This document shows, one piece after another, positions 5,722-24,563 of a stretch of DNA of 59,292 bases. The position numbers and the translations under genes are program-made. The number at the start of each line of letters is the position of its first letter. Positions within the stretch are counted from its first letter, which is position 1. The notes under the pieces were generated by a model. It was given only the letters and a program-made list of their open reading frames with translations. It had not been told where the DNA came from and made no database searches. Source of the DNA: a virus (taxonomy: Duplodnaviria; Heunggongvirae; Uroviricota; Caudoviricetes); the IMG/VR virus record IMGVR_UViG_2850784384_000007; one strand, 5' to 3'.

Positions 5722-8700
5722 TCAGCTGATACTGATACCTGCTGTGGATTTCTTCATCACAACAACCAGCAAATCGCTGATACTTGCTGTGGGATACCAG
5801 CCATTTACCAGCCATGCCGATACAGAAAACTCCAGCGTCATGTGACCGTGACCGGCAGGCATATCAATAACACCCGTATATATCAGCGTATTATCCAGGG
5901 TCGTTCGGTTATAAATTTCAGCACCGTTTTTCTTCACTATCAGGCGGCATGACGAATAAATATTGTTATTCTTCCGCTCATGTTTAGCACCGCGAAACGC
6001 CACCGCGGGAATAACAATTTGCCGATCAAACGGCTGATCGTCATAAACCCTGACGGTAATGGTCCCTGATGGCCACCTCTCCGGTGCCCGGGAGTCCCGT
6101 GGGAAAGGTTTGCCCACTGTTTTAACGAGATCGCCTTCAATCTGGTTCGCGGACAATTTTCCCAGAACCCGACAGTTCTTATTAATCGTGACGTTGTTGA
6201 GCGTCCCGGAGTTCGCGTTCACGTTACCGCTGATATCGGCATTTTTCGCCGTCAGCCGTCCGCCAGGTGTCAGGGAAAATGCCGGAGGATTACCGCCGCT
6301 GGTAATGGTCGGAGCCGTCAGGCGTTTCAGGAACACGTCGTTCATGAATATCTGATCGCCCTGACCAACAAACATCGGCTTTGTGTTGCCATTCGCAGGA
6401 TTAATCATCGCAATCCTGTCTGCCGCCAGCAGCACCTGACTCTGCATTCCTGCTGGCGTATTCTCAATACCGGCACCGATACCACGCAATATAAAGGCGT
6501 CCGTCCTTCATCTGTTGCAGCTTCACAGCCCACATGCTGTTCAGGTTATTATTTGTATCAACCTGAACTTTCTGTATCTGCTGGATTGCAGCACTCTGAT
6601 TTTCCAGTTTTTTATTGACGGTTTGCGTGATTTCATTGCTGACATTCGTAATGGACGTCCTGATTTCAGTCAGGTCCGGCGCAAGCTGACCGTTATCAAT
6701 CTGCGTCCACAACTCCTTGCCGAGATGCGTTTTATTGATCAACCCTTTATAAAAACTCAGATAACCTTCCGCATCATCGCTCGCCCGACCGACGGCCTCC
6801 ACAAATGCCGATTTGCCAACGGTGTTCACACTGCGAACGTAAAAATAATAATCATGGCCCGGCCTGATATTGATACTGGCGGCTATCCAGTACAGCGCCG
6901 TGCCAAGATAGCGGGCGCTGGTTTCAACCTGCCTGATATCCGCAATCCGCTTTTCCGAAAACCAGAACTCAAACTGCACCGTCGGGTCATATACAGCCAG
7001 TTTCGGGACCACCGTTATCTGAAAATACCCCGGTATCAGTTCAATAGTGACAGGCGCTGCCGGTGCCGCAATCCGGAACGATACCGACGCCGGATCGCCC
7101 TGCTGCCCCCGGGCATTTACCGCCCGGACTGTCAGACTGTAATTCCCCAGCGCCAGCTGCCTGAAGCGGTATGTGGTTTCCGTCGTCCTGGCTGTGCTGA
7201 CCAGCCGCTCACTGCCGTCGTCCGCTGCCACGGTCAGGCGAAGCAGGAAGCTCACACCCTTCACCACCTTCGGCGTGTCCCATCGCGCCAGCACCTGATA
7301 TTCCCCGCTGTCTGCGGTGACTTCGGCGGTCAGATGCTGCACCGCTGGCGGCGTGACACCATTCACCGTGCCGCGCCGGTCACCGTCAAAGTGTGCCCCG
7401 TTATCCACGATGGCCTCTTTTTCCGGCACATGCTGCACGGCGGTGATGGCATACGTGCCGTCGTCGTTCTCACGGATACTCACGCAGCGGAACAGGCGCT
7501 GGCGCAGCGTCGGCAGCTTCAGCCCCCACACGCTGTATTCTGCAACGCCGTCAGGAACCCGGCTCACTTTCACCTTCACGCCGTCGGTGACGGACTGAAC
7601 CTCCACGCTGACCGGATTGCCATTTCCGTCAACCAGGCTTATCAGCGTGGTACCGGAGGACGGCAGCGTGATTTCACGGTCGAGCGTCAGCGTCCGGGTC
7701 TGGCTGTTCACCGCCAGTACGCGACCACCGGTGCTGATACCGGCATAATCATCATCGCAGATTTCAATGACATCACCCGGTACATGGCGAAGCCCTTCTG
7801 CGCCGACGCTGAAGTCCACGGTCTGCGTTTCCAGCAGTTCCGTTTTAATCAGCCACAGCCCGGCGCGGTGCGCCTGTCCCCGGCTGGTACAGCCAAAGGC
7901 ATCCATCTTCGTGACGTTACGACCGTAACGGACAATGGCCTGCGTGTCCTCCACAAGCTCTGTCGCCGTCTCATGACCGTTGTCCGGATCAATCCAGTTC
8001 ACCTCAACGACATTATGGCGGTCCTTCAGGGCGCTGAAGCTGTAGCGGAACGGCGCGCCATCATCCGGCATCACCACATTACTGCGGTTATAGGTCCACA
8101 CTTTATCCGACGGTCGGTCCTGCACGAACGTCAGCGTCTGCCCGTTCCATACCGGCATACAGCGCATCGCCGAGCAGAAATCACTGAGAACATCCCACGC
8201 CTTACGCTGTGTGGTCAGGTAAGCGTTACAGGTGATGCGCGGCTCCGTGCCGCCAAATCCGTCCGGCACTGACTGGTCGCAGTACTGGCCGATGACATAC
8301 AGCGCCCATTTGTCCACATCTGCCGCACCAAGACGTTTCCCCATGCCGTAGCGCGGATGAGTGAGCATGTCCCACAGACACCAGGCCATGTTGTTGCTGT
8401 ATGCTGGCTTAAGCGTTCCGTCCCAGATACCGCTGTATTGCCGCGTCTGCGGGTTATAGTTCGACGGCACCTGCAGAATGCGCCCGCGAAGATGATAATT
8501 GCGACTCACCTGCTGGTTACCGAACTGCTCTGAATCCACCTGCACGCCGACCAGCGCCGTGTTCGGGTAGCACTGTTTCACATCGATGATTTCGGTGTAC
8601 GACGACCAGAGCGTTTTGTTCTGCAGCTGGTCTGTGGTGCTGTCCGGTGTCATCCTGCGCATCCGGATATTAAACGGGCGCGGCGGCAGGTTACCCACCA

Positions 8701-9202
8701 CCACCGAGGCCAGATACTGCGAAGTGGTTTTGCCCTTAATGGTGATGTCTTTTTCCGTCACCCAGCCACCGTTACGCTGTATCTGAACCAGCAGGCGGAC
8801 TTCCGACGGATTCCGGTCCCCCTTTGAGGTGGTTTCCACCAGTGCCTGCACACCGAAGGTCAGGCGCAGACGATCAATGTTTGCCGACGTGATGGTCCGG
8901 GTGATCGGCGTGTCGTATTTCACTTCCGTACCCAGCACAGTCTCTGAGCCGGAAGATTCAAACCCCTCCGGCGGTGTCTGCTCCTGCTCGCCGGCGCGGA
9001 ACACCACCGTAACACCGGAAAAGTTTGTCTTCCCCTCGCTATCCAGGACCGGCGTACCGTTCAGCAGCACGCTTTTTAATCCATCCACCGGACCGTCAAC
9101 CGGCCCTTCGCTGATGGCATCAATCACACTCAGCAACTGCGTGGATTTCAGGTTGTCCTTCGCTTCGCGCGGGGTATGCCCCTTACTGCTGCCTTTACCC
9201 AT
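5722..9202 (-). pseudogene. J: tail tip / host specificity protein J, frameshifted
   Basis: Two overlapping ORFs (6464-9202, 912 aa; 5722-6489, 255 aa) in different frames together matching lambda J length and J sequence features as recalled; frame switch within about 6464-6495, not in a homopolymer. Confidence 0.8.
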
Positions 9203-24284: not shown

Positions 24285-24563
24285 CGAGTAAATCCGGTAA
24301 TTTATCCCCCGCACGCGCGCACTGATTCGCTCCCTTAGCAATAAGGATTTTCAGATGATCAATATGACGCGGCGTTAAATCCGGGAACTGTCGTTGCATG
24401 GACAAAGGAATGGAGTCAAGCGTACTGGATAAAGCCATCGCCAGCTTACTAAGGGCAAAAATACAAAATCCGGTATCGATAAGATTTCCTTTTGACACCT
24501 GATTTTTTAACTGCTGTGCGACAGCCTGTTCTGCGGTCAGTTCCCATCTGGCAATGAGTAGTT
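24256..24563 (-). pseudogene. terminase small subunit Nu1, 5'-truncated by IS600
   Basis: C-terminal ~100 aa resemble lambda Nu1 C-terminus (..TGFCIF.LS....SILD.IPLS.Q.RFP.L..RH.D.L..I....LDE.I); ORF runs into the IS600 terminus at 24564; N-terminus and cos region absent. Confidence 0.7.

What the first reader, a model, noticed from the sequence alone, without database searches (positions are those of the whole stretch)
5722..24563. Morphogenesis module carries five independent inactivating lesions
G has an in-frame TAG (14854-14856); H is frameshifted in a T7 run (12487-12493); portal B is frameshifted in an A6 run (21179-21184); J is frameshifted near 6464-6495 outside any homopolymer; Nu1 and cos are removed by IS600. 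The gene order is otherwise perfectly lambda-like, so this is a recently functional phage now defective for particle production, while lom and ipaH cargo stay intact. Two of the frameshifts are in homopolymers and could be sequencing errors.
Basis: seen in the sequence. Interest (0 to 1): 0.45.

Follow-up and report, generated by a model that had tools for sequence, protein, structure and literature searches.

The report
Decaying ipaH-carrying lambda-like Shigella prophage
This is an ordinary, already-annotated defective lambda-like prophage of Shigella flexneri; its head and tail genes are broken by several small mutations and an insertion element, while the virulence genes it carries remain whole.

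Summary
All five lesions are in the sequence at the stated coordinates, judged against the closest intact relative, a prophage of enteroinvasive E. coli CFSAN029787 in which all 23 late genes are whole.

- **G:** CAG to TAG at codon 52 (14854-14856), the only change in the gene.
- **H:** T8 to T7 at 12487-12493.
- **B:** A5 to A6 at 21179-21184.
- **J:** one extra A at 6484.
- **Nu1 and cos:** the first 67 codons of Nu1, the cos region and about 2.5 kb are replaced by an IS600 cluster.

**Shared with other assemblies:**
- The B, J and Nu1::IS600 lesions recur in hundreds to over 1000 independent S. flexneri contigs, including strains 301, 2457T and 8401.
- The G amber defines a sub-lineage.

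**Not shared:** the H and stf homopolymer deletions are absent from near-identical sister strains. They may be recent slippage, gene conversion or local assembly error.

This is known Shigella prophage decay. The damage is older than "recently functional" implies.

The parts
1..477 (+). ybhB, the chromosomal flank on the bio side of the lambda attB region
   Evidence: NCBIfam PRK10257/YbhB, 344 bits, full length. The same ybhB-bioA-bioB flank is seen in L018, L021 and L023.
1060..2823 (+). ipaH cargo gene (587 aa), intact
   Evidence: NCBIfam IpaH_Shig NEL domain, 563 bits against a cutoff of 550. A 587-aa product is called at the same locus in L018, L021 and L023.
3006..3626 (-). tail fibre assembly-like gene (DUF4376), intact
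   Evidence: tblastn covers residues 1-207 of 207 at 94.7% with no stops.
3580..4991 (-). side tail fibre gene, split by a -1 frameshift in a T run (T5 to T4 at 4409-4412)
   Evidence: tblastn splits into frames -2 and -1 at residue ~190. The indel is listed. L018-L025 have T5, and only L027 shares T4.
5055..5654 (-). lom (Ail/Lom outer-membrane protein), intact
   Evidence: Full-length 199 aa at 95.5% to the relative's Lom.
5725..9202 (-). J (tail tip / host specificity), +1 frameshift from an inserted A at 6484
   Evidence: The exact 912-aa N-terminal product is on 704 contigs. The +A allele is in L011, L013-L016 and L018-L026.
9266..11577 (-). I, K, L and M tail-tip genes, intact
   Evidence: Full-length tblastn hits without stops.
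11580..14313 (-). H (tape measure), carrying three changes. In-frame 303-bp deletion at 13979-13986. A -1 frameshift T8 to T7 at 12487-12493. A second -1 frameshift T6 to T5 at 11643-11647.
   Evidence: Three reading frames in tblastn. Indels. del303 is shared by all close relatives, which encode an intact 912-aa H. T7 and T5 are absent from the nearest relatives but present in L006-L009 and L026.
14288..14614 (-). T reading frame (the G-T frameshift partner), itself intact but dependent on G translation
   Evidence: 109 of 109 aa at 99.1%. The dependence on G follows from established knowledge of lambda G/GT.
14626..15009 (-). G (tail assembly chaperone), with the nonsense mutation Q52amber (TAG at 14854-14856)
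   Evidence: CAG in L002 and L003, and the only difference in the gene. The 51-aa and 71-aa fragments are on 26 and 21 contigs. TAG is present in L011 and L013-L017. There is no suppressor tRNA in the window.
15070..20589 (-). V, U, Z, FII, FI, E, D and C/Nu3, all intact
   Evidence: Full-length tblastn hits without stops.
20582..22172 (-). B (portal), +1 frameshift A5 to A6 at 21179-21184
   Evidence: The exact 351-aa fragment is on at least 1000 contigs, including AAN42336 (Sf301), AAP16213 (2457T), ABF04804 (8401) and ADA73063 (2002017).
22172..24284 (-). W and A (large terminase), intact
   Evidence: 67 of 67 and 642 of 642 residues aligned with no stops.
24259..24564 (-). Nu1 (small terminase) remnant, residues 68-169 only
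   Evidence: tblastn. The same IS600 junction is in L011. The 107-aa fragment is on 343 contigs.
24564..28012 (.). IS cluster (IS600, another IS3-family element, inverted IS600) that replaces the Nu1 5' end, cos and ~2.5 kb
   Evidence: Self-BLAST of IS copies. Matching records are annotated 'IS3-like element IS600 family transposase'. NCBIfam IS3 transposase hits. The same structure is 100% identical in L033.

Best explanation
The region is the late (head, tail and packaging) operon of an ipaH- and lom-carrying lambda-like prophage of Shigella flexneri. It lies on the ybhB side of the lambda attachment region and is decaying neutrally and stepwise.

Steps shown here:
1. An IS600-associated deletion removed the start of Nu1, the cos packaging site and about 2.5 kb.
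2. A +1 slip in an A run broke the portal gene.
3. A single-base insertion broke J.
4. A 303-bp in-frame deletion shortened the tape measure.
5. These four changes are shared by essentially all close S. flexneri relatives retrieved.
6. A later C-to-T change created an amber codon in G, which also abolishes the G-T fusion. This change is confined to a sub-lineage.
7. The two H frameshifts and the stf frameshift are the youngest layer. They are single-base losses in T runs seen in this assembly and a few others.

Inferred, not shown:
- Any one of cos/Nu1, portal, G/GT or J loss should block production of infectious particles. This follows from what is established for phage lambda.
- The remaining genes are intact because little mutational time has passed. 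Sister strains differ by 0-9 SNPs over ~19 kb. Selection need not be invoked.
- ipaH and lom persist because the host uses them.
For: - An intact close relative exists with all 23 late genes whole. Every lesion is a discrete difference from it.
- Exact truncated products recur in independent assemblies: B at least 1000 contigs, J 704, Nu1 343, G 21-26.
- The lesion matrix across 27 loci shows nested sharing.
- L011 differs from the window by 1 SNP and three homopolymer deletions in 20,069 bp.
- cos and the Nu1 N-terminus are absent from the whole window.
- No amber-suppressor tRNA is present.
- Codon differences from the intact relative are mostly synonymous, 168 synonymous against 76 nonsynonymous codons. 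Most divergence therefore accrued under purifying selection, before the decay.
Against: - No experimental test of induction or particle formation is possible here.
- The three private homopolymer deletions in coding sequence (H twice, stf once) may not be biological, so the lesion count for this strain is uncertain by up to three.
- Helper-phage complementation cannot be excluded for protein functions, although the loss of cos cannot be complemented in trans.
Confidence: 0.87

Rival explanations
1. The homopolymer frameshifts in H (T7, T5) and stf (T4), and the intergenic A4, are local assembly or polishing errors. On this reading the strain's H would be the intact 912-aa form found in its sisters. 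The B, J, G and Nu1 lesions would remain real.
For: - Against the nearest relatives the window shows 0-1 SNPs but three or four 1-bp differences. All are deletions and all lie in A/T runs of at least 5.
- The tail module exists in two ~99.86% identical copies per S. flexneri genome (L020 vs L021). Polishing can mis-assign reads in such a region.
- The T8 run reads T6, T7, T8 or T9 in different assemblies.
Against: - The assembly is otherwise clean. Window 22031-37584 is 100% identical to LR213452.1, and 22031-43422 has 1 SNP and no indel against CP097831.1, although it contains 115 A/T runs of at least 5.
- 4 of 64 runs changed in one region against 0 of 115 in the other, which gives p of about 0.015.
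- The exact T7+T5 product (270 aa) occurs in four independent Logan read-set assemblies, and T7 alone in a fifth.
Confidence: 0.4
2. The private H alleles were copied into this prophage by gene conversion from a paralogous, more decayed tail module elsewhere in the same genome. They would then be a single event rather than independent slippages.
For: - T5 and T7 lie 850 bp apart. They co-occur in L006-L009 on a different background (J wild type, G CAG, no 303-bp deletion) that is 99.9% identical to the window.
- S. flexneri genomes carry two near-identical tail modules sharing the J frameshift and del303.
Against: - No paralogue with T5+T7 is visible in the 59-kb window.
- No flanking SNPs mark a conversion tract, because the sequences are too similar.
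- A4 and T4 would still need separate events.
Confidence: 0.15
3. The module is still functional. The frameshifts would be bypassed by programmed recoding, the amber by read-through, and packaging supplied by a helper.
For: Lambda-like phages do use one programmed -1 frameshift (G-T). This is established knowledge.
Against: - The intact relatives encode B, J, H and G as single open frames with no recoding at these sites.
- The lesions are single-base differences from those open frames.
- There is no suppressor tRNA.
- cos is deleted, and cos acts only in cis.
Confidence: 0.02
4. The surviving intact late genes are retained by selection, for example as a domesticated structure or to drive lom/ipaH expression, rather than by lack of time to decay.
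For: Fifteen late genes remain full length. The module is conserved across many S. flexneri genomes.
Against: - Sister strains differ by only 0-9 SNPs in ~19 kb, so too little time has passed for further hits.
- Other strains show additional random hits in the supposedly retained genes: IS1 in E (L018), IS1 in V and ISEc60 in FII (L003).
- Portal, chaperone, tip and terminase-recognition functions are all lost, which rules out any assembled particle.
Confidence: 0.04

Closest known systems
Intact prophage of enteroinvasive E. coli CFSAN029787 (NZ_CP011416.1, ~362-408 kb, integrated at mlrA), and the similar one in E. coli FDAARGOS_943
   Same: - 97-99% nucleotide identity over the whole late operon.
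- Same gene order from Nu1 to stf/tfa.
- The same lom and an adjacent ipaH.
   Different: - In CFSAN029787 all 23 late genes, cos, lysis, replication, immunity and int/xis are present.
- It sits at mlrA, not at ybhB/ybhC.
- Its ipaH is the gene that is frameshifted, while the window's is intact.
Phage lambda / phage 21 / mEp460-cdtI group of lambdoid siphophages
   Same: - Canonical late-operon order.
- The head genes and the tail-tip genes L, K, I and J are ~82-97% identical in protein to phage 21.
- The V-to-H tail block is ~91% identical in DNA to mEp460, cdtI and Ayreon.
   Different: - Those are viable phages with cos, whole B, G, H and J, and the long H without the 303-bp deletion.
- They carry no ipaH.
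The same prophage as annotated in S. flexneri 2a 301, 2457T, 5 str. 8401 and 2002017
   Same: The identical 351-aa truncated portal product is deposited from these genomes as 'head-tail preconnector gp5'. The lesion is therefore already in public annotation.
   Different: - Strain 301 has an apparently whole G (134 aa as annotated).
- The window adds the G amber and the private homopolymer deletions.
Cryptic lambdoid prophages of E. coli K-12 (Rac, DLP12, Qin, e14)
   Same: Stepwise inactivation by IS elements, deletions and point mutations, with retention of host-useful cargo such as lom-like outer-membrane genes. This comparison rests on established knowledge and was not tested here.
   Different: The K-12 cryptic prophages have lost most of their late operons. 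Here the late operon is almost complete and only punctured.

Membership tests
Lambda-like late (morphogenesis) operon | Collinear gene order Nu1-A-W-B-C/Nu3-D-E-FI-FII-Z-U-V-G-T-H-M-L-K-I-J, followed by lom and stf/tfa | tested here: met
   tblastn of phage 21 and CFSAN029787 proteins hits the window in exactly this order on the minus strand. The phage 21 annotation links each gene to its lambda counterpart.
Lambda-like late (morphogenesis) operon | cos site and complete small terminase (Nu1) upstream of A | tested here: not met
   Only Nu1 residues 68-169 remain. The relative's cos-like sequence and the Nu1 N-terminus are absent from the whole window.
Lambda-like late (morphogenesis) operon | G and G-T chaperone pair made by a -1 programmed frameshift | tested here: inconclusive
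   The G and T frames are present in the lambda arrangement. G carries an amber at codon 52. The slippery site itself was not analysed.
Defective (cryptic) prophage | At least one essential phage function inactivated by a mutation that is real, meaning seen in independent sequence data | tested here: met
   The portal frameshift product is on at least 1000 contigs, including four finished genomes. J is on 704 contigs, and the Nu1 fragment/IS600 junction on 343.
Defective (cryptic) prophage | Failure to yield infectious particles on induction | not testable with these tools
   Needs mitomycin C or UV induction with plaque, electron-microscopy or encapsidated-DNA assays.
IS600 (IS3 family) | Sequence identity to annotated IS600 and IS3-type orfA/orfB transposase | tested here: met
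   Plasmid records 99% identical are annotated 'IS3-like element IS600 family transposase'. NCBIfam transpos_IS3 scores 336 bits for the 272-aa ORF.
IS600 (IS3 family) | Simple insertion flanked by a target-site duplication | tested here: not met
   The flanks are not contiguous in the intact relative. 2,474 bp (387729-390202 of NZ_CP011416.1) are missing between them. This is an IS-associated deletion or replacement, not a simple insertion.
IpaH family T3SS effector (cargo) | LRR N-terminal domain plus NEL C-terminal domain in one open frame | tested here: met
   587-aa ORF. NCBIfam IpaH_Shig scores 563 bits against a cutoff of 550. Pfam LRR_TTSS plus NEL hit the identical-length products in L018 and L021.

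The most novel reading that the evidence does not exclude
The T8 run in the tape-measure gene is a genuine slippage hotspot (T6, T7, T8 and T9 are all seen). Lesions may also be exchanged between the two near-identical tail modules that S. flexneri genomes carry. If so, prophage decay here would proceed partly by concerted evolution (gene conversion) among paralogous prophages rather than by independent hits. The J frameshift and the 303-bp H deletion are present in both copies of one genome, which would fit this.
Probability: 0.2. Interest if true: 0.3.

Novelty: already known. Interest (0 to 1): 0.12.

Why it matters
The finding matters little for biology. Prophage decay with retention of virulence cargo is a textbook feature of Shigella, and these pseudogene fragments are already deposited from finished genomes.

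Two practical points follow:
1. Automated prophage finders can score this mEp460-like region as "intact" in S. flexneri drafts (PMC9264714 reports such calls). It lacks cos and has broken portal and tail-tip genes, so such calls should not be read as evidence of an inducible phage.
2. The case shows how to separate real homopolymer frameshifts from doubtful ones without new sequencing. The method is to look up the exact truncated products in independent assemblies and compare with near-identical sister strains.

Tried and rejected
- **Phage 21 as reference.** It was too divergent in the M-to-FI block to place the lesions in H and G. I replaced it with the 97-99% identical E. coli prophages.
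- **Internal tandem repeat as the cause of the 303-bp H deletion.** blastp of H against itself shows no repeat. The deletion sits at an 8-bp microhomology instead.
- **Generally error-prone assembly.** Rejected, because 15.5-21.4 kb of the same window is identical or near-identical to two other complete genomes with no indel. IS copies within the window differ by only two single-base gaps, one of them in a T run.
- **Prophage-encoded suppressor tRNA that could rescue the G amber.** None found. The anticodons are tcc, tgt, tct and cat, each present twice.
- **Lambda/phage 21 cosN 12-mer.** Not found in the window or in the intact relative. Only a cosB-like 31-bp match was found in the relative, inside the segment missing from the window.
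- **S. flexneri 301 genome paper.** Not held in the library. Statements about 'ipaH islands' there rest on my memory and are not used as evidence.
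Full report
**What the region is**

ORF listing and BLAST show that window 3006-24564 (minus strand) is a complete lambda-type late operon. It runs from a truncated Nu1 through A, W, B, C/Nu3, D, E, FI, FII, Z, U, V, G, T, H, M, L, K, I, J, lom, stf and a DUF4376 tail-fibre assembly-like gene. An ipaH gene follows at 1060-2823 and chromosomal ybhB at 1-477.

The head genes and the tail-tip genes L, K, I and J resemble phage 21 (about 82-97% protein identity). The V-to-H tail block resembles mEp460, cdtI and Ayreon (about 91% DNA identity).

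Much closer relatives exist as prophages in E. coli. FDAARGOS_943 is 98.7% identical over 100% of the region. The enteroinvasive strain CFSAN029787 and four similar genomes are 97.3% identical.

In CFSAN029787 every one of the 23 late genes is annotated as an intact CDS. The prophage continues through cos, lysis, tRNAs, Q, replication, immunity and int/xis to mlrA. I used it as the 'intact' reference (L002, L004, L005).

**Checking the five claimed lesions**

A gapped alignment of the window to L002 lists every indel. tblastn of the reference proteins shows where reading frames change.

- **G.** The 387-nt gene differs from both references at one base only, giving CAG to TAG at codon 52, window 14854-14856. 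The amber stops G after 51 residues. Because the G-T fusion is made by ribosomes that have translated G (established for lambda), it removes GT too. ARAGORN finds eight tRNAs in the window, none with a CUA anticodon.
- **H.** T8 to T7 at 12487-12493, with a frame change at residue ~710.
- **B.** A5 to A6 at 21179-21184, with a frame change at residue ~331.
- **J.** One extra A at 6484 (GATACC[A]CGCAAT), with a frame change at residue ~906. It is not in a homopolymer.
- **Nu1/cos.** Homology to the reference ends at 24564, inside Nu1, and only residues 68-169 remain. It resumes at 28395 in the lysis gene. That skips 2,474 bp of the reference, which hold the Nu1 start, a cosB-like sequence, a KilA-N gene and a RelE/ParD pair.

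The gap is filled by IS600, a second IS3-family element and an inverted IS600. This is an IS-associated replacement and not a simple insertion. Neither the Nu1 N-terminus nor the cos-like sequence occurs anywhere else in the window.

All five observations are therefore confirmed at the stated coordinates.

- **Second H frameshift.** H has a second -1 frameshift, T6 to T5 at 11643-11647. It shifts the last 22 native codons into a third frame, and tblastn shows H in three frames.
- **H deletion.** H also lacks 303 bp (101 codons, in frame) at an 8-bp microhomology, 13979-13986. H has no internal repeat that would explain this.
- **Intergenic change.** An A5 to A4 change lies in the V-G intergenic spacer at 15026-15029.
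- **Other indels.** All other indels against L002 are compensating sets in divergent mosaic patches, or lie in intergenic DNA, and keep the frames.

**Are the lesions real, and how old are they?**

I looked up the exact truncated products in a 15-billion-protein collection.

| Fragment | Contigs | Notes |
|---|---|---|
| Portal, 351 aa | at least 1000 | Deposited from S. flexneri 2a 301, 2a 2457T, 5 str. 8401 and 2002017 |
| J, 912 aa | 704 | |
| Nu1, 107 aa | 343 | A 100-aa version at contig ends is on at least 1000, as expected where assemblies break at IS600 |
| G, 51 aa and 71 aa | 26 and 21 | |
| H N-terminal, 612 aa | 1 | |
| H middle, 270 aa | 4 | |
| stf N-terminal | 1 | |

I then fetched 20 encoding contigs (L006-L027) and scored every lesion site in each.

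- B A6, J +A, del303 and the Nu1::IS600 junction are present in every close S. flexneri relative in which the site was retrieved. For B A6 and the junction that is one fetched contig (L011), backed by the contig counts above.
- In those relatives H is an uninterrupted 912-aa protein with all three tape-measure Pfam domains. The 303-bp deletion is therefore an in-frame length variant and not itself inactivating.
- G TAG marks a subset (L011, L013-L017).
- T7, T5, T4 and A4 are absent from that subset.

**The doubtful layer**

L011, an independent draft, differs from the window by one SNP in 20,069 bp, plus three 1-bp deletions in the window (T6 to T5, T8 to T7, A5 to A4). L017 shows zero SNPs in 8,421 bp and the same three deletions. 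L021 and L025 add the stf T5 to T4 change.

Four differences that are all deletions in A/T runs, against 0-1 substitutions, look like consensus error.

Three facts argue the other way.

1. **The rest of the window is clean.** Window 22031-37584 is 100% identical to LR213452.1. Window 22031-43422 has one SNP and no indel against CP097831.1. That stretch holds 115 A/T runs of at least 5 bases, against 64 in 1-19199. Four of 64 against 0 of 115 gives p of about 0.015, so the assembly is not generally noisy.
2. **The alleles occur elsewhere.** The exact T7+T5 product is present in four independent read-set assemblies (L006-L009). T7 alone is in a fifth (L026), and T4 is in L027.
3. **The T8 run varies.** It reads T6, T7, T8 or T9 in different assemblies.

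The L006 background differs from the window: J is wild type, G is CAG and there is no del303. S. flexneri genomes also contain two tail modules that are 99.86% identical over 14.5 kb, both with J +A and del303 (L020 vs L021 from one genome).

Recurrent slippage, gene conversion from a paralogue, and repeat-confounded polishing all remain possible. I put the artefact reading at about 0.4.

None of this affects the verdict of defectiveness, which rests on the shared lesions.

**Mechanism and interpretation**

By what is established for lambda:
- cos acts in cis and is required for packaging.
- Nu1 is required for cos recognition.
- The portal (B) is required for prohead assembly.
- G/GT are required for tail assembly.
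- J is required for the tail tip and adsorption.

Each shared lesion alone should block production of infectious particles. These consequences are inferred, not tested.

The early region is also gone. Homology to the intact relative ends at 36277, and what follows is a patchwork of IS elements and pieces of another lambdoid prophage. In the sister genome LR213452.1 the integrase next to ybhC is truncated beside an IS.

Codon differences from the intact relative are 168 synonymous against 76 nonsynonymous. This is typical of divergence under purifying selection, so the phage lineage was functional until shortly before the lesions.

'Recently functional' still needs qualifying. The portal frameshift is shared by serotype 2a, 5 and X-variant genomes, so the prophage was already dead in their common ancestor.

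The fifteen intact genes need no selective explanation.
- Sister strains differ by only 0-9 SNPs per ~19 kb.
- Other strains carry further random hits: IS1 in E (L018), IS1 in V and ISEc60 in FII (FDAARGOS_943).

**Comparison with what is known, and novelty**

This is the familiar Shigella pattern.
- Shigella genomes are described as IS-rich, with extensive pseudogenisation (PMC8072062 abstract).
- The truncated products are already in GenBank from the first finished S. flexneri genomes.

One practical note: PHAST was reported to call an mEp460-like region 'intact' in S. flexneri 2a drafts (PMC9264714). The present analysis shows why such calls should not be trusted for this element.

**Verdict**

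The novelty rating is 'already known' and interest is low.

Noticed in passing
window 56658-59292 (compare 2041-3621): A second, inverted copy of the tfa-like gene plus ipaH, 96% identical to the first, lies at the far end of the window. It is cut off from any tail genes by IS600 at 55421-56683. This ipaH appears split into a 317-aa NEL part (57482-58435) and a 226-aa LRR part (58612-59292, running off the window).
   Followed up: partly
L020 vs L021 (both from LR213452.1); L018 vs L019 (both from CP026871.1): S. flexneri genomes carry two prophages whose tail modules (U through ipaH-proximal DNA, ~14.5 kb) are 99.86% identical. Both have the J frameshift and the 303-bp H deletion, while their FI/FII/Z head-tail joining genes differ. 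This implies duplication or gene conversion of an already damaged tail module.
   Followed up: partly
window 12487-12493 and the same site in L008, L018, L026: The T run in the tape-measure gene reads T6, T7, T8 or T9 in different assemblies. It is either a real slippage hotspot or a systematic sequencing trouble spot.
   Followed up: partly
window 24564-25672 and 55421-56503 vs 26929-28012, 39415-40651, 52006-53242: Two IS600 variants coexist. They differ by a 25-bp segment, present at 25039-25063 in the first variant, which gives a 272-aa orfB against 263 aa in the other. The copy at 55421 also has T6 where the others have T7, near its end (55459-55465).
   Followed up: no
window 30599-30909 and 41422-41731: The four-tRNA cluster (Gly-tcc, Thr-tgt, Arg-tct, and a CAT anticodon called Met here but annotated tRNA-Ile in the E. 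coli relative) is present twice, 98% identical. The second copy belongs to a fragment of another lambdoid prophage embedded among IS elements.
   Followed up: no
window 36277-56000: Beyond the replication genes the prophage's own immunity/int region is missing. It is replaced by a patchwork: IS3-family copies (1251-bp element, three copies; IS600, three more copies), QueH, DUF977, YdaT-like, a CI-type HTH and Rha/Ash genes of a second prophage. The window matches CP097831.1 to 43422 but departs from LR213452.1 at 37584, which indicates an IS-mediated rearrangement between strains.
   Followed up: partly
L005 9037-10679 (CFSAN029787) vs window 1060-2823: In the E. coli strain whose prophage is fully intact, the adjacent ipaH is annotated as frameshifted. 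In the Shigella window the prophage is broken and ipaH is intact. The pattern is reciprocal.
   Followed up: no
L006 (Logan SRR31555779), site equivalent to window 5171-5176: That contig has C5 instead of C6 in lom, which would frameshift lom there. It is another homopolymer difference in a contig that also carries the T7+T5 H alleles.
   Followed up: no
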